A DNA stretch of 64,000 bases from Escherichia coli (GTDB lineage Bacteria > Pseudomonadota > Gammaproteobacteria > Enterobacterales > Enterobacteriaceae). Made by a program: the position numbers. The DNA lies in the NCBI RefSeq assembly GCF_024298765.1, contig NZ_CP101211.1; one strand, written 5' to 3'. Positions 35,101 through 41,100 of the stretch are shown piece by piece; within the stretch, counting starts at the first letter, position 1, and each line of letters starts with the position of its first letter.

Positions 35101-38100
35101 CTGGTAATCTAAGCAGGGCAGTTGGGTCTTCCGCAACTTCTGGAGGGGCAGGAGGTGCTGGCCAGTTGGCACAGGAAACAATGTCCAGCTTCGGTATAGG
35201 TCAGCTTAAGCAGATGGCAATGAAGAAAGCCTACGAATTGCTACCAGATACAGTTCGAGACTTTGTCTTTAAGAACGTTGCTACTACCGGAGGAGAGGTT
35301 GTCTTCTCGGCTGCGGTTCAAAACTTTATGCTTGCATTAAACGTGATCGGTTGGATTTATACAGCCTATCAGGTCACTAAAATGCTTTTAGAAATGTTGG
35401 TAGCATGCGACCAGAAAGAGATGGAAGCTTCTATTCATAAGAATCAAAAATCCTGTTTTACATTAGATACGGAACGATGCGTCAAATATCTGAATGTTGG
35501 TTTCACAAAGAAATGCGTTAAAAAAGCAACAGACATGTGCTGTTATAATTCCATGTTGTCACGCGTTATTATGCAACAAGCTTATCCGCAATTAGGAATA
35601 GACCCTGTCGCCTCTAATTGCGTGGGGCTATCAATAAAGCAAATACAGCAACTGGATTTCGATAAAATTGATCTGACGGAGTGGATTAATGATGCAGTTC
35701 AGGTAGGAGAAGTTCCTGATCAATATTCAAAATTCTCCGAAGAATCAATTGTGGAAAACTTACCATTCCAGAATGAGAACTATCAACTTCCATCAGAACG
35801 TACCAAGGAAGCAATGGGCGGTGAAGAAAATATGATAAAGGCCAGACAAGAAAATGCTCAGGCTATAAAAGAGGAAAATGTAGATTGTAGCTATTTACCT
35901 CGACCGGCCATATGTGAGGTAGGTTCAACTACGCTGGATCCGGTTACGGGCAAGCAGTTGCCGAAATATTGAAGAAGGGGCCGTTAGGCCCCTTTTTTAA
36001 TTACTTGGCTTTCAATGTTTTTTCTGGGAAGCCTTTTTTACCGTATTCACCGGTAAAGAGGTAATAATCTTTTCCGTTGATGGAGGCTGCAACACCCCCT
36101 GGAGTTGTTGTATTTGGGCTATCAGAACGGAAAATGATACCCGAAAAATCAGCGCTTGTTTCGTTTCCTTTAAATGGGATGAACACATAACGAATTACAG
36201 CGTAATCACCAGCGGGAAGGTTTAGCTGAGGAATTTCGGTTCCTGTTGCGGGGCGAATCGCCTGAAAGCTGTACATTGAATCTGTAGGGAAAACATCAGC
36301 ATCAGGCTTAGAGGGCAGATCACAGGTACTCCATTTATTGACGACTGCCATATCAATTTTACATGTGGCCAGAGCTGCTTTCTGTTTTTCAGGGTTGTAT
36401 CCAAATGAGGCCTGAGTTGCTTTTGTATGCTCAAAAACATACTTAGCTCCTTCACGTACCAAACTTTCATCATTGTAAGGCAATTTTTTTGGATTGGGGA
36501 CGAACACTAGGTATTGATTGACCTGGATGTATTCGGCGTCAGAAGAACTGTACAAAGAGCCGAGGCTCATGATCCCAAAACCTTTTAGACCGCCTGTTAC
36601 GTAGCCCATCGAACTATTGATGAGATACTTAGAAAGAAAGTTGTCGGCATCCCCTCCAGGAGTAACCTCTTGCTCCTTAAAATTAACGTCGAAACCAGCA
36701 AACGAATAGGCATTCTTGGCGACAGAATCATTTGCTTTAGCATGCCAGTACTGGCCGTGACTGTACGCATTCAGAGCGGTGCCTGGCGTAGTGCCGGTGT
36801 CACCGGCACAACCCGATAGGGAAAAACCAATGACGACAGAAGAGACCAGAGATACTAAACGTAAAAGTTTCATTTAAAGCCCTTTTTGTAATGTCTTTTG
36901 GAGATGGAACCATTATTCCATAGTCACGCGTTTCACAAACAACCTGATTGCATAAAAAAGGAAAAAAAGTGATTTCCAGTAGAACCAGCAGTACACAAGA
37001 AAAGCGCTTTTATAAAAATGTATAATTATTAAAACGAAGTAATGAGGTTGAAATGGGTAAGCCAACAGAAGAGCAAAGACCTGTTATCGAGAATGCTAGC
37101 GCAAACAATATGGTGATAGCAGCGCCTGGATCAGGCAAATCATTCACCATGATAGAAGCGGTTATATCGATTCTCAAAAAGTATCCATATGCAAGAATCG
37201 GGATGGTGACCTTTACTCGCGCTGCAACAAACGCACTTGCAGCAAAGTTACAAAAGCGATTGAGCAAGAAGGATCTTGACCGGGTGCTGGTGGATACTTT
37301 TCACGGACTCGTTAAGAAGCAACTGGACATGATTCGCTGGCCGGGAAAGATGTTGATAGGGCCAGCACAGAGATCTGTCATTCACCGGGCTTTGAAAGAA
37401 TCCGGTGTAACGATGAAGTTTGCTGAAGCTGAATTCGTTATTGATGCTATCGGCAGAGAAATGGATACGGATGTGATTTCAGTTCGGCATAACAGACAAC
37501 AGATCCATTTATTTAATACCTATCAGGCGTTATGCCAGAAAGACCATGTGGCGGACCTCAATGCTCTTTCAAAATTTGTTGTCGGTCAAATGCATTCGGG
37601 AAAAATGCGCACGTTAGATTTGACACATTTGATAGTAGACGAAGTTCAGGATACTGACTCTATACAATTCTCATGGATAGCATTGCATACAAGAGCTGGA
37701 GTCTATACGAGTATAGTTGGAGACGATGATCAGGCCATCTACTCCTTCAGATCCTCAGGAGGAGTCAAAATATTTCAACAGTTTGAAAAACACTTCAGAC
37801 CTAACATATTTTACTTAAACACATGCTTTAGGTGTGAACCTGAAATTTTAGAGGTGGCCGGAGCACTGATAGGAAAGAATGTTTACCGTTATGCCAAAGA
37901 GTTACGCTCGGCAAAAAAGGGAGGAGGAAAGGTCACTTTTCGTTCATATGTAGATATGGAGGAACAGATACAGGGTATTTTAAGCCTTATAAATCAGGAT
38001 CCACATGGATGGGCAATTCTAAGCCGCAATAATGCTCACTTGGATGAGCTAGAAAGTTTGATCGAACAGCCAGTAATTCGTTACGGAGGTAAATCATTCT

Positions 38101-41100
38101 GGGATGAAAAAGAAACAAGCGATGTGTTAAGCCTTATGGCCTTTTTCCGACAATCAAATGATCCTCGCTTAATGAAGAGAGTATTGGCATTGTTTGGAGA
38201 ACAGGAATCAGTTTTGGATGAAGTGGCATTGAGTATGAGAGGAAGAAAAGTTACTTTTGGCGACCTTGCCATCCCGGAGGACAGTTCTCTCGAAACAAAA
38301 ACATTACATTCAAACTTCGTGCGCTTTACCCAGGAAAGTACTGATAAAGTTGAGATAGCAAAACGTTTCGCCAACCTTACGAAATGGATGGAATCGTCGT
38401 CAATCAAGATGAGGAGTAATAAAGGTACAGCAACCTTAACAAAAATTGCTTTAGACACTTGTAAACAGTGGGCAGAAAAGACTGGTTGGATGAATATGAT
38501 CAATCGTGCTGCTGCAATGTCATTAGGCCCTAGGAAGAAGGACGAGGAATACAGCCCAGAGAAAGTAGTCCTATCAACCTTGCATGGTTCAAAGGGTCTT
38601 GAGTGGAATAAAGTAATAATAATGAGTTGTAATGCGGATCAGATACCAAGTAAAAGATCAGTTGGGGAGGAGGCAATAGAAGAAGAAAGACGTTTGCTTT
38701 ATGTTGGATTTACGCGTGCAGAAAAGCAACTTTTTGTAATGTGGTATGGTGACCCTTCTTTCTTTTTAAGAGAATGCAGTGAAGAAAAGATAAAAGAAGC
38801 AGCTAATATTCGAATTTCTCCAGTTTATACAGAATAATTCGATATGGGCATTTACTTATGCTTAAAGCTATAGTATAAAAACAATGAGCTTAAATATCAG
38901 CTCCCAAATTTGAGTAACTTTGCTTAAAGTTACTTTCGCGTTAAGCGTTGATTTAGCCGTGAAAAGCGGCCAGCTTAAACAAGCTGTAAGACACCACCGG
39001 CAAAATGTCACCTTTGTCGCTGGTGCACTTCCCATGCCTGAAAAAGGCAATCTGAATTTACCAAACCGTAACTAATTTAGCTCCTCCTGGAGCTATTTTT
39101 GTTGCGTACTTCTAATGCCAGATAGTATAAATCAGGCGGTTCATAGCTTACGGGAGATGAATGACAGGCTTTGCCTTCGTGTTGAAACAAAAAATTGTTT
39201 CTTCCTTCTTACTATATATAGGTGACCCCAAATGTCTAAAAATAAAGCTCGCAGTAAAGCCCTTCATCAAACCTTTAGTGAAATTATTCCAGAGATGGAT
39301 AAGGCGCTAAACAAACAGCTCTTAGAAGTTCTGATGAAATATACAGAACGTGATAATGAACTGATTGTTATTTTGAATGAGGACGGCCCAAATATCATTG
39401 AACTTAAGTCTCTTAAGCCTGTGTCTTTGTTGGCCGAAAAGCTTTCTGCTTATTCAAGCTATTATCATGTGGATGTTGTGGAGCTCGTGGTCAAGAAAAT
39501 TGATTTCGAAGGAGCTTATAAGCTTCTTAAAGCTTCCCCAGATGTACCACTTTTTAAAAGCTTAACTGAACTGGATAAATATCTTGTTGAGGAGTTTGAA
39601 AAATTCGGATTAAATTCATTTCTTGACGTGGATAATCTGGATTACTCACTTGAAAAAGCCAGTGAACTCAAAAATGAGCAGTTAATAAATTGGGTTTCGG
39701 ACATCATTTGCAAACGTGAAAAATTAACTTTACGTAAGCGTTTTGATGTCGCAGTAAAGGCCCACTACGAAAATGTAGAAAAAATGTATGATACCATTCG
39801 TCCGTTAATGAAAAAACTGGGTTTCCCAGAAGATCTCATGACGCACACCTTTAGTGAGTTAAGCGTTTTTGAAACTAAAGGATGGGACCATGCAATAAAA
39901 TCGAAAATTGAGACTCTCGCTAAGCGTGAAACTCAATATTTAGATGATGCGGCTAAAGCAGAGAATCGACGTCTTGTAACAGAGAAGTTGGAGAACTCTT
40001 TAGCGATTGCACCAACTAAACCAACAAGAAATTGGTTACATATTGCCGGAATTGCCTGTTTGGTAGTCTGCACGTTCATGTATGTAACTAATAAATTTAT
40101 TTAATCCTGTTAAGGGGGAACCCTAACGGGGCTTCTCTTTGAACAAATCGAGGAGCGGAAAATGTCATATCTTGAATATATCAATGAAGTAAAAGTGTCC
40201 GGGATAGTTATCAGTGCTGTGGAGAAAAAAATGACTGACCAGAGTATAGGTTTGTTAATAAAGCTCAAAAATAGGATGAAGACAGAAGTTGATGGTGAAA
40301 TCACTGAGAGAGAATTTTCAGTTCAAATCAAGGTGTCGCCTGAAATGTATTCAACCTGTTTCACTGGTATAAATCAGGGTGATGAGTTGATGGTCTCCGG
40401 TTATATTGTTGTCGATACTATTATGATTGAAGGGAGAGAACATCCTCTTGACTACATGAGAGTGGTAGCAACAAGTAAGTTGGCTCACATACCTAAACCT
40501 CTAAAAGGTTTTGGACAAAGTAGCTTTAATCAGATCTGACATTAAACCCACCCTAAAGGGGAGAAATCCCTTCATGGGATTTCTCCTTTTGGAGTCCCCA
40601 TGAAACAAAAATTTAGGGCTACTGCAATAAGTAGTAATCAACTTAGTTTTTTTTCTATACTCGATATAGATGAAGATGAAATAACGCAAATAGTTGATTC
40701 ACCCAAAGAGCATTTAAATGATGCTTACACGTCCGGATTAAACTTTAAATCAGAAGAAAGTAACATTTCTGAGATAAATTATGATTCTGAAAGGCGTGAA
40801 AATCACCTTTATGAAAAATCCAAATTACTTAAAAATCAGATTTTGCATACAATTAATTTTGCAACAGAAACAGATTATCTATATACGGTTGAAGAATATA
40901 ACCCAGATTTGGGTGGTCTGGTAATAGAATGGACCCCTGAGGATGTGTATGTTGTTTTTCTATCCGCTATGGAAGAGTCTTTGGAAATCATTAAAGAACT
41001 AGTGTTGAGGAGAAAGTTATTCTTCAAAGATGACAATGGTAATATCACAGTGAATCCACTTTTAGAAGCTGAAACACGGTGGTATATGTCAAAATCATTT

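What the first reader, a model, noticed from the sequence alone, without database searches (positions are those of the whole stretch)
37053..40539. Stand-alone short UvrD-like helicase followed by a tail-anchored protein and an OB-fold protein
A 594-aa SF1 helicase with all core motifs but lacking the long C-terminal extension of chromosomal UvrD opens the accessory array. It is followed by a 290-aa C-terminally membrane-anchored protein and a 125-aa OB-fold-like protein. With the primase-like gene 7 kb downstream this may be a DNA-processing or establishment module; short helicases on mobile elements are also recurrent components of defence systems.
Basis: partly seen in the sequence, partly recalled or inferred. 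Interest (0 to 1): 0.55.

Follow-up and report, generated by a model that had tools for sequence, protein, structure and literature searches.

The report
IncHI plasmid TrhI helicase locus
The helicase is trhI, an already named backbone gene of IncHI resistance plasmids, and the two genes after it (a membrane-anchored protein and an SSB/PriB-like ssDNA-binding-fold protein) start a separate operon that in plasmid R27 is switched on with conjugation; this is ordinary plasmid backbone whose exact job is still untested.

Summary
All three ORFs are real. The window is the first 64 kb of an IncHI2 plasmid, ≥99% identical over this segment to more than 1,100 sequenced plasmids. The 594-aa protein is TrhI, which RefSeq names "IncHI-type conjugal transfer helicase". 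It is a UvrD-like SF1 helicase with all motifs intact and without UvrD's C-terminal tail. It lies after trhN at the end of the Tra2 transfer region.

The three genes are not one unit. A conserved hairpin-rich RNA candidate, a terminator and a nearly invariant promoter/leader block separate trhI from the next genes. In R27 the two downstream orthologues are induced 9-fold at 25 °C and trhI is not. All three rise in the derepressed htdA mutant.

TrhI-like helicases recur on diverse plasmids, often MOBH, next to SSB and AAA–DUF3150–VWA genes. There is no defence-system signature.

Most likely this is an accessory DNA-processing module for conjugation. The entity is already known; its mechanism is untested.

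The parts
32784..35972 (+). trhN (TraN-type mating-pair stabilisation protein), the last gene of the Tra2 AN operon; marks the upstream boundary
   Evidence: RefSeq annotation. R27 operon structure from PMC7366339.
36001..36873 (-). Divergent 290-aa lipoprotein (R27 R0004 orthologue) between trhN and trhI
   Evidence: A lipobox (L-x-G-C) is conserved in five IncHI-like lineages. R27 annotates it as a lipoprotein. A divergent gene of about 280-290 aa occupies the same position in IncC, Shewanella and Vibrio plasmids; the IncC and Shewanella ones carry a lipobox and show no detectable sequence similarity.
37053..38837 (+). trhI: UvrD-like SF1 helicase, 594 aa, without the UvrD C-terminal extension
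   Evidence: 82% identical to R27 TrhI (R0003) and 48% to the IncHI3 orthologue.
38876..39107 (+). Candidate structured RNA (an sRNA or the trhI 3'UTR): about eight hairpins ending in an intrinsic terminator (stem 39078-39095 followed by a T-run). A conserved promoter-like pair lies just upstream: -35 TTTACT at 38851-38856 and -10 TATAAA at 38874-38879.
   Evidence: RNA fold -72.9 kcal/mol, z = -6.4. RNAalifold predicts 52 pairs, 6 of them with compensatory double changes, and many one-sided changes to G.U on the + strand. Terminator scan. No Rfam family matches. The covariance model finds it only in IncHI loci.
39101..39184 (+). Nearly invariant non-coding block: probable promoter (-35 TTGCGT at 39102-39107, 18-nt spacer, -10 TATAAA at 39126-39131) plus the start of the leader of the downstream operon
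   Evidence: Only about four variable positions across five lineages whose 290-aa proteins are 43-67% identical. Still recognisable in IncHI3. IncHI2 versus R27 identity is 97% here against 73% for the whole segment. Single copy in the window.
39232..40104 (+). 290-aa protein with a C-terminal membrane anchor (R27 R0002 orthologue); first gene of the temperature-regulated cluster; fast-evolving; fold not recognised
   Evidence: R0002 is induced 9.2x at 25 C and 61x in drR27.
40162..40539 (+). 125-aa SSB/PriB-like OB-fold protein (R27 R0001 orthologue) with a conserved C-terminal PKPxxGF..S.F motif
   Evidence: R0001 is induced 8.9x at 25 C and 19x in drR27.
40600..41577 (+). 325-aa acidic protein with an internal duplication; no known domain
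   Evidence: no Pfam match; the two halves match at E 2e-12; fast-evolving.
41635..42693 (+). CobS/MoxR-like AAA+ ATPase
   Evidence: The orthologues in L013-L015 carry AAA_5.
42825..42992 (+). Small annotated ORF (55 aa) within the cluster
   Evidence: RefSeq annotation. Small ORFs sit at the same position in R27 and in L013/L014.
43062..44189 (+). DUF3150 protein
44267..46279 (+). CobT-like VWA-domain protein with an acidic low-complexity middle region
46351..46572 (+). 73-aa protein conserved in IncHI1 and IncHI3
46686..47918 (+). Primase-like protein (DUF7146 + Toprim_3); last gene of the nine-gene cluster, followed by a 270-bp gap
   Evidence: The R27 orthologue R0204 is induced 5.3x at 25 C.

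Best explanation
Identity (shown). The helicase is TrhI, a backbone gene of IncHI conjugative plasmids. It lies immediately after the Tra2 mating-pair genes.

Anatomy (shown). trhI is followed by a hairpin-rich RNA element ending in a terminator, and then by a separate, nearly invariant promoter/leader. That promoter region precedes nine closely spaced same-strand genes:
- a membrane-anchored protein,
- an SSB/PriB-like OB-fold protein,
- a duplicated acidic protein,
- a CobS/MoxR-type AAA+ ATPase,
- a small ORF,
- a DUF3150 protein,
- a VWA protein,
- a 73-aa protein,
- a toprim primase-like protein.

Regulation in R27 (published data). The nine-gene cluster is strongly induced at the transfer-permissive temperature. 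Both it and trhI rise when the transfer repressor HtdA is lost.

Mechanism (inferred). MOBH relaxases carry no helicase domain. TrhI would supply UvrD/PcrA-type 3'-5' unwinding of the nicked plasmid. This could serve strand displacement and replacement synthesis in the donor, or single- to double-strand conversion in the recipient. The co-induced OB-fold protein would bind the displaced single strand or act as a helicase cofactor. The toprim protein would prime the complementary strand. The tail-anchored protein would hold the machinery at the inner membrane near the secretion system. The module would improve transfer rather than being essential for it.
For: Identity and conservation
- The segment is 100% identical to many IncHI2 plasmids and is annotated trhI.
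- The gene order is the same in R27, pNDM-MAR and three further lineages.
- All helicase motifs are conserved.

Separate transcription units
- A terminator-like hairpin lies at 39078-39095.
- The intergenic region is more conserved than the coding sequence.
- In R27 at 25 versus 37 C, R0001 changes 8.9x, R0002 9.2x and trhI 1.13x. In drR27 versus R27 the values are 19x, 61x and 8.7x. The paper describes R0204-R0002 as a cluster of nine induced genes.

Link to conjugative DNA processing
- TrhI-like helicases lie after traN and before AAA-DUF3150-VWA in Shewanella and Vibrio MPF_F-type plasmids.
- One lies after TraG_N and before SSB-AAA-DUF3150-VWA in Pseudoalteromonas.
- In Burkholderia one lies in the same gene string as the MOBH relaxase, TraD and DUF4400. 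In Xanthomonas one lies next to that string on the opposite strand.
- Those two MobH relaxases show no helicase-family match in NCBIfam.

The OB-fold protein
- It is SSB/PriB-like.
- Its profile reaches divergent SSBs.
- In the Pseudoalteromonas and Vibrio loci the profile's best matches are the annotated SSB and a 204-aa protein downstream of the helicase.
- IncC has a genuine ssb gene in the equivalent post-traN cluster.

Precedents
- ICEBs1 needs PcrA plus the 126-aa OB-fold processivity factor HelP (PMC3542172).
- ICESt3 OB-fold proteins belong to the relaxosome and contact PcrA (PMC12614216).
- Recipient UvrD promotes single- to double-strand conversion of incoming plasmids (PMC10085688).
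- Deleting SXT s063, the gene after traN, lowers transfer about 100-fold. Deleting bet, exo, s067, s068 or s070 lowers it 10-fold or less (PMC2791158).
Against: - I could not read any mutant phenotype for trhI. The R27 Tra2 mutagenesis papers are not held.
- PMC7366339 does not mark R0003 as a tra gene in its table.
- IncC plasmids, also MOBH/MPF_F, have no helicase in this cluster. MOBH conjugation therefore does not generally require one.
- trhI is expressed at 37 C, when R27 transfer is off. That also fits a housekeeping role.
- The cluster is not near oriT, which lies in Tra1 (my own knowledge, not tested here). An early 'leading region' role is therefore unlikely.
- No interaction or activity was tested.
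Confidence: 0.5

Rival explanations
1. Vegetative maintenance helicase. TrhI and the downstream proteins serve replication or repair of a plasmid of about 250 kb, for example by clearing replication-transcription conflicts, restarting forks or lowering fitness cost. Their place next to Tra2 would then be only backbone linkage.
For: - In R27 trhI is expressed equally at 25 and 37 C (560 versus 494 units), that is, also when transfer is off.
- An SSB/PriB-like fold and a primase-like protein suit replication restart as well as they suit conjugation.
- Some TrhI-like helicases are on plasmids typed as non-mobilizable.
- The window begins with a replication initiator gene and contains partition genes.
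Against: - The nine-gene cluster is among the most strongly induced R27 genes at the transfer-permissive temperature. R0002 and R0001 also rise 61x and 19x in the htdA mutant.
- The recurring partners are traN, TraG_N, MOBH relaxase and TraD.
Confidence: 0.2
2. Recipient establishment or recombination module. The products would be made early in the transconjugant or delivered to it. They would protect and convert incoming ssDNA or promote recombination, much as the ssb-bet-exo genes occupy the same cluster in SXT and IncC.
For: - IncC has ssb, bet and exo between the AAA and DUF3150 genes of the same post-traN cluster.
- Recipient UvrD is needed for single- to double-strand conversion.
- Deleting SXT s060-s073 lowers transfer more than 100-fold.
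- The hairpin-rich conserved non-coding region could in principle act as a single-strand element.
Against: - The locus is far from the Tra1 oriT (my own knowledge, not tested here).
- The many G.U-type substitutions point to an RNA rather than a DNA hairpin element.
- TrhI lacks the UvrD C-terminal domain, which that study cites as important for RNA polymerase interaction.
- No recombinase or exonuclease gene is present here.
Confidence: 0.2
3. Anti-phage or anti-plasmid defence system built around a short UvrD-like helicase (Gabija-like or a new type).
For: - TrhI matches GajB models at E 3e-42.
- The 290-aa and 325-aa proteins evolve fast: 43% and 38% identity in lineage L014, where TrhI is 75% identical.
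Against: - The GajB matches reflect generic UvrD-family similarity. UvrD, Rep and PcrA models score higher.
- None of the eight neighbouring proteins matches GajA or any other defence partner. The only other matches are weak generic AAA similarities and one weak DRT primase-like match at E 0.004.
- The locus is a fixed backbone segment present across the IncHI lineages sampled, not a variable island.
- It is co-regulated with the transfer genes.
Confidence: 0.05

Closest known systems
TrhI of IncHI1 plasmid R27 (R0003), with R0002 and R0001
   Same: The proteins are 82%, 60% and 87% identical. Gene order, intergenic length and non-coding blocks are the same, and the position after trhN and the divergent lipoprotein is the same.
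   Different: Only lineage-level divergence (IncHI2 versus IncHI1). No functional difference is evident.
E. coli UvrD / Rep and Gram-positive PcrA (SF1A helicases)
   Same: Same domain architecture and the same helicase motifs. The alignment covers the whole core.
   Different: Scores are far below the orthologue cut-offs (about 180 bits against 950-1150). TrhI is 594 aa against 720. It lacks the C-terminal protein-interaction region and is plasmid-borne.
PcrA plus HelP of ICEBs1, and OrfL/OrfM of ICESt3
   Same: A UvrD-family helicase working with a small OB-fold protein of about 125 aa in conjugative DNA processing. Here both are encoded within 1.4 kb of each other.
   Different: The helicase is element-encoded here, not host-encoded. 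No sequence similarity to HelP was shown. The OB gene is next to the helicase, not next to the relaxase and coupling protein genes. A functional link is untested.
Post-traN cluster of IncC plasmids and SXT/R391 ICEs (s063, ssb, bet, exo, cobS-like, s070...)
   Same: A divergent lipoprotein after traN, then an AAA ATPase, an SSB-type protein, DUF3150 and VWA proteins on the same strand. SXT deletions show a supporting rather than essential role for most of these genes.
   Different: IncC has a genuine SSB plus Bet and Exo, and no helicase or toprim gene. IncHI has TrhI, a shortened SSB/PriB-like protein and a toprim protein, and no recombinase.
Gabija GajB
   Same: A short UvrD-like helicase of similar length.
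   Different: No GajA partner is present. The locus is fixed plasmid backbone and is co-regulated with the transfer genes.

Membership tests
IncHI TrhI | Near-identity to the protein annotated TrhI, and position after trhN at the end of Tra2 | tested here: met
   100% identical to WP_000517886.1 'IncHI-type conjugal transfer helicase TrhI'. Synteny with R27 R0005-R0001.
IncHI TrhI | Demonstrated requirement for conjugative transfer | not testable with these tools
   The R27 Tra2 mutagenesis papers are not held. PMC7366339 does not mark R0003 as a tra gene.
UvrD/Rep/PcrA SF1A helicases | UvrD-helicase and UvrD_C domains with motifs Q, I, Ia, II, III, V and VI | tested here: met
   Pfam. Alignment to UvrD 3lfu. 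Motifs invariant across orthologues.
UvrD/Rep/PcrA SF1A helicases | Orthologue-level score to the curated UvrD, Rep or PcrA models | tested here: not met
   158-180 bits against cut-offs of 911-1144 bits.
UvrD/Rep/PcrA SF1A helicases | C-terminal extension after motif VI | tested here: not met
   The alignment ends at TrhI residue 564 and UvrD residue 614. TrhI stops at 594.
Gabija (GajA + GajB) | Adjacent GajA (OLD-family ATPase-Toprim nuclease) | tested here: not met
   PADLOC scan of eight neighbouring proteins found no GajA. The toprim protein gives only a weak DRT primase-like match at E 0.004.
SSB/PriB OB-fold proteins (125-aa protein) | Five-stranded OB barrel with a helix between strands 3 and 4, and structural similarity to SSB/PriB | tested here: met
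SSB/PriB OB-fold proteins (125-aa protein) | Sequence-family membership (Pfam or NCBIfam SSB or PriB models) | tested here: not met
   No Pfam match even at E 10. No NCBIfam match. No PDB sequence match. Only a family profile reaches divergent SSBs, at E 2e-5 to 8e-4.
SSB/PriB OB-fold proteins (125-aa protein) | Acidic C-terminal tip of canonical SSB (…DDDIPF; recalled from my own knowledge) | tested here: not met
   The C-terminus is PKPLKGFGQSSFNQI. It is conserved as PKPxxGF..S.F and is not acidic.
SSB/PriB OB-fold proteins (125-aa protein) | ssDNA binding and oligomeric state | not testable with these tools
   Needs gel-shift and size-exclusion experiments.
HelP-type helicase processivity factors | Small OB-fold protein encoded next to the relaxase and coupling protein genes that stimulates a UvrD/PcrA helicase | tested here: inconclusive
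   Size and fold class match. The gene neighbourhood differs, since it is next to the helicase and not the relaxase. Stimulation of a helicase cannot be tested here.
Tail-anchored membrane proteins (290-aa protein) | A single transmembrane helix at the extreme C-terminus and no other hydrophobic segment | tested here: met
   Hydropathy peak only at 268-286. Modelled as a helix, 268-289. Conserved across six lineages. Membrane insertion itself is untested.

The most novel reading that the evidence does not exclude
IncHI and related MOBH elements carry their own UvrD-type helicase together with a degenerate SSB/PriB-like cofactor. This would be a proteobacterial counterpart of the PcrA-HelP pair, supplying the unwinding activity that MOBH relaxases lack. 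The previously undescribed hairpin-rich RNA and the nearly invariant leader between the two genes would be the control point that couples the nine-gene operon to the temperature-sensitive transfer switch.
Probability: 0.15. Interest if true: 0.6.

Novelty: already known. Interest (0 to 1): 0.28.

Why it matters
IncHI plasmids spread multidrug resistance, including mcr and carbapenemase genes, in Salmonella, E. coli, Enterobacter and Klebsiella. This locus is present across the roughly 1,960 IncHI-type records in the plasmid collection, yet apart from the name trhI its genes are annotated as 'hypothetical'.

Showing that TrhI and the SSB/PriB-like protein act in conjugative DNA processing would explain how relaxases without a helicase domain get their DNA unwound. 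It would also give a function to a conserved operon induced at the transfer-permissive temperature. The conserved RNA and leader could be a handle on the temperature control of IncHI transfer.

As it stands, the result is improved annotation of a known backbone region. It is not a new system.

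Tried and rejected
- **Defence reading.** The PADLOC scan of the helicase and eight neighbours found only generic GajB similarity and no partner. Rejected.
- **125-aa protein.** No sequence match in Pfam or the PDB. Only the fold search and a family profile were informative.
- **Counterparts in other plasmids.** BLASTP of the IncHI lipoprotein against its IncC and Shewanella positional counterparts, and of the 290-aa and 125-aa proteins against their IncC counterparts, found no significant similarity. Two small Shewanella ORFs after the helicase did not align with the 125-aa family.
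- **Non-coding region.** No credible Rfam family. The invariant block is not repeated elsewhere in the window. The 36-codon ORF at 39115-39226 was rejected as coding, because indels break the frame between lineages while the nucleotides are invariant even at synonymous positions. The leader downstream of the putative start site has no unusual folding energy (z = -0.5). The covariance model found nothing convincing outside IncHI.
- **Literature.** The R27 Tra2 mutagenesis and R27 genome papers could not be read. Full-text searches for TrhI gave only gene lists and annotations. One paper mentions DUF3150, uninformatively. No IncHI small-RNA report turned up.

Full report
**1. What is there**

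The three ORFs exist at the stated coordinates: 37053-38837 (594 aa), 39232-40104 (290 aa) and 40162-40539 (125 aa), all on the + strand.

The 4.8-kb segment around them is ≥99% identical to 1,114 plasmid records, and many are 100% identical. These are mostly conjugative plasmids of E. coli, Salmonella and Enterobacter; the reference record examined, pG17-1, is typed MOBH / MPF_F. In several records the coordinates equal those of the window. The window is therefore the first 64 kb of an IncHI2 plasmid such as pG17-1.

RefSeq names the helicase trhI, "IncHI-type conjugal transfer helicase TrhI". It follows trhU, trhN and a divergent lipoprotein gene at the end of the Tra2 transfer region.

**2. 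The helicase**

- Pfam finds UvrD-helicase and UvrD_C domains.
- The best solved relative is E. coli UvrD (E 5e-33). TrhI residues 6-564 align to UvrD 12-614, so TrhI ends about 30 residues after motif VI and lacks UvrD's C-terminal region.
- The Q residue, PGSGK, TFT, DExQD, VGDDDQxIYSFR, H-SKGL and TRA are invariant in orthologues from IncHI1, IncHI3 and a Shewanella plasmid at 29% identity.
- Scores to the curated UvrD, Rep and PcrA models (158-180 bits) are far below their cut-offs of 911-1144 bits. TrhI is a distinct plasmid lineage, not a copy of a chromosomal helicase.

**3. The 290-aa protein**

It has no match in Pfam, NCBIfam or PADLOC, and only one weak, uninformative PHROG match.

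Its only strongly hydrophobic stretch is residues 268-286. AlphaFold models this as a terminal helix in a mostly helical protein (pLDDT 77). A C-terminal hydrophobic segment is kept in all six lineages compared, although overall identity falls to 25-43%.

**4. The 125-aa protein**

It has no sequence-level match in Pfam or the PDB.

A profile search of 1.8 billion representative proteins found only 18 relatives. The most distant of these are divergent SSBs.

The protein lacks the acidic SSB tip. It carries a conserved C-terminal PKPxxGF..S.F motif instead.

After the non-coding block described below, it is the most conserved feature of the stretch. It is 87% identical to the R27 orthologue, against 82% for TrhI and 60% for the 290-aa protein.

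**5. The genes are not one unit**

The 394-nt spacer between trhI and the 290-aa gene is more conserved than the genes. IncHI2 versus R27 identity is 80-97% there, against 73% for the whole segment.

I aligned five lineages, including three fetched from public assemblies with the same gene order. The spacer has two parts.

First part, 38876-39107:
- It is a chain of about eight hairpins ending in an intrinsic terminator at 39078-39095.
- It folds far better than shuffled sequence (-72.9 kcal/mol, z = -6.4).
- It keeps its stems through compensatory changes and many G.U-type changes on the + strand.
- It is preceded by a conserved -35/-10 pair, read from the alignment.
- It matches no Rfam family. 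A covariance model built from it hits only IncHI loci.
- It is either a small RNA or the trhI 3'UTR.

Second part, 39101-39184:
- It is nearly invariant in all five lineages and still recognisable in IncHI3.
- It contains a promoter-like TTGCGT, an 18-nt spacer and TATAAA, followed by a leader.

Downstream, nine genes follow at 57-131-bp spacing as far as the toprim gene. A 270-bp gap comes after it.

**6. Published expression data agree**

R27 has the same order: R0005 trhN, R0004 lipoprotein, R0003 trhI, R0002 (291 aa), R0001 (125 aa), then the genes up to the toprim gene.

PMC7366339 reports R0204-R0002 as a cluster of nine genes of unknown function induced at 25 C, the temperature that permits transfer. 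Its supplement gives these values:

| R27 gene | Window equivalent | 25 C vs 37 C | drR27 (htdA mutant) vs R27 |
|---|---|---|---|
| R0001 | 125-aa protein | 8.9x | 19x |
| R0002 | 290-aa protein | 9.2x | 61x |
| R0003 (trhI) | helicase | 1.13x | 8.7x |

All three genes therefore respond to the transfer regulatory circuit. Temperature control starts only after trhI.

**7. Wider context**

Within the plasmid collection the helicase, the 125-aa protein and the DUF3150 protein have nearly the same distribution. Each is found in about 1,960-1,980 IncHI-type records. Because these plasmids share one backbone, the co-occurrence is not independent evidence of a functional link.

More informative is a broader family of 570-620-aa TrhI-like helicases on other plasmids:

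| Plasmid host | Position of the TrhI-like helicase |
|---|---|
| Shewanella, Vibrio | After traN and a divergent gene of about 280 aa, before AAA-DUF3150-VWA |
| Pseudoalteromonas | After a TraG_N gene, before SSB-AAA-DUF3150-VWA |
| Burkholderia | In the same gene string as the MOBH relaxase, TraD and DUF4400 |
| Xanthomonas | Beside that string on the opposite strand, with SSB, a nuclease and an AAA ATPase on the other side |
| Hydrogenophaga, Geoalkalibacter | Directly after an AcaB-family regulator, with SSB nearby |

The two MobH relaxases I checked show no helicase-family match.

IncC has the same post-traN cluster with a genuine ssb, bet and exo, but no helicase or toprim gene.

The 125-aa family profile gives weak matches in the Pseudoalteromonas and Vibrio loci. 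Its best matches there are the annotated SSB and a 204-aa protein downstream of the helicase. The 125-aa protein thus occupies the SSB slot of this module.

**8. Mechanism**

The best-supported reading is an accessory DNA-processing module for conjugation.
- TrhI would unwind the nicked plasmid for a relaxase that has no helicase of its own.
- The OB-fold protein would handle the single strand or assist the helicase.
- The toprim protein would prime the complementary strand.

Precedents:
- ICEBs1 needs PcrA plus the OB-fold factor HelP.
- ICESt3 OB-fold proteins are part of the relaxosome.
- Recipient UvrD promotes single- to double-strand conversion of incoming plasmids.
- SXT deletions in the equivalent cluster show supporting rather than essential roles for most genes.

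All functional steps are inferred. I could not read any phenotype for trhI. IncC manages without such a helicase. trhI is also expressed at 37 C, which keeps a maintenance role open.

**9. Defence**

The GajB matches are family-level similarity. No GajA or other partner is present. The locus is fixed backbone and is co-regulated with transfer. I consider a defence role unlikely.

**10. Verdict**

The entity is already known: a named gene in a well-sequenced plasmid backbone, with the downstream cluster's regulation already published.

This analysis adds:
- a fold assignment for R0001-type proteins,
- the finding that trhI and the downstream genes are separate units,
- the recurrent association of the helicase with SSB and AAA-DUF3150-VWA genes on diverse, often MOBH, plasmids,
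- an undescribed conserved structured RNA and an invariant leader.

Interest is modest.

Noticed in passing
window 38876-39107 (+): A hairpin-rich RNA candidate of about 230 nt between trhI and the next gene. It has its own conserved -35/-10 pair and an intrinsic terminator. Folding z = -6.4. Stems are kept by compensatory and G.U changes in five lineages. It matches no Rfam family and was found only in IncHI loci.
   Followed up: partly
window 39101-39184 (+): An 84-nt non-coding block that is nearly invariant across lineages whose flanking proteins are only 43-67% identical, and still recognisable in IncHI3. It is a likely promoter plus leader of the temperature-induced nine-gene operon and a possible regulator binding site. 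It is single copy in the window.
   Followed up: partly
window 40600-41577 (+): The 325-aa acidic protein is an internal duplication. Two segments of about 80 aa match each other at E 2e-12. It has no known domain and evolves fast (38% identity in lineage L014).
   Followed up: partly
window 36001-36873 (-); L008 30676-31536; L005 11002-11841; L010 7838-8698: A divergent gene of about 280-290 aa sits directly after traN in IncHI, IncC, Shewanella and Vibrio plasmids. The IncHI, IncC and Shewanella proteins carry a lipobox and have no detectable sequence similarity to one another; the Vibrio protein was not examined. The R27 orthologue R0004 gave the highest array signal among the R0001-R0008 genes.
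   Followed up: partly
window 41635-46279 (+); L008, L010, L012, L005: The trio of a CobS/MoxR-like AAA+ ATPase, a DUF3150 protein and a CobT-like VWA protein is conserved after the mating-pair genes in IncHI, IncC, Vibrio, Pseudoalteromonas and Shewanella plasmids. Its function is unknown. Only one paper in the library mentions DUF3150.
   Followed up: partly
L006 8019-8882; L011 7172-7888; L007 12677-13285: An AcaB-family transcriptional regulator gene lies directly upstream of TrhI-like helicase genes in Hydrogenophaga and Geoalkalibacter plasmids, and nearby in a Burkholderia plasmid. This hints at a regulator-helicase pair outside IncHI.
   Followed up: no
window 11637-16001: A stretch of about 4.4 kb between the TraC-family gene and parA has no listed gene in the plasmid table and a raised G+C content (0.47-0.50 against about 0.41 nearby). 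The plasmid gene table is known to be incomplete.
   Followed up: no
window 21362-23147: An ISKpn26 (IS5-like) transposase gene lies directly after a short 'ParM domain-containing' gene. This suggests an insertion that truncated parM in this plasmid.
   Followed up: no
L004 15548-17511 (pNDM-MAR): In IncHI3 the region equivalent to the 670-aa VWA protein is annotated as two genes: a 348-aa hypothetical protein and a 258-aa VWA protein. This may be a split or a frameshift.
   Followed up: no
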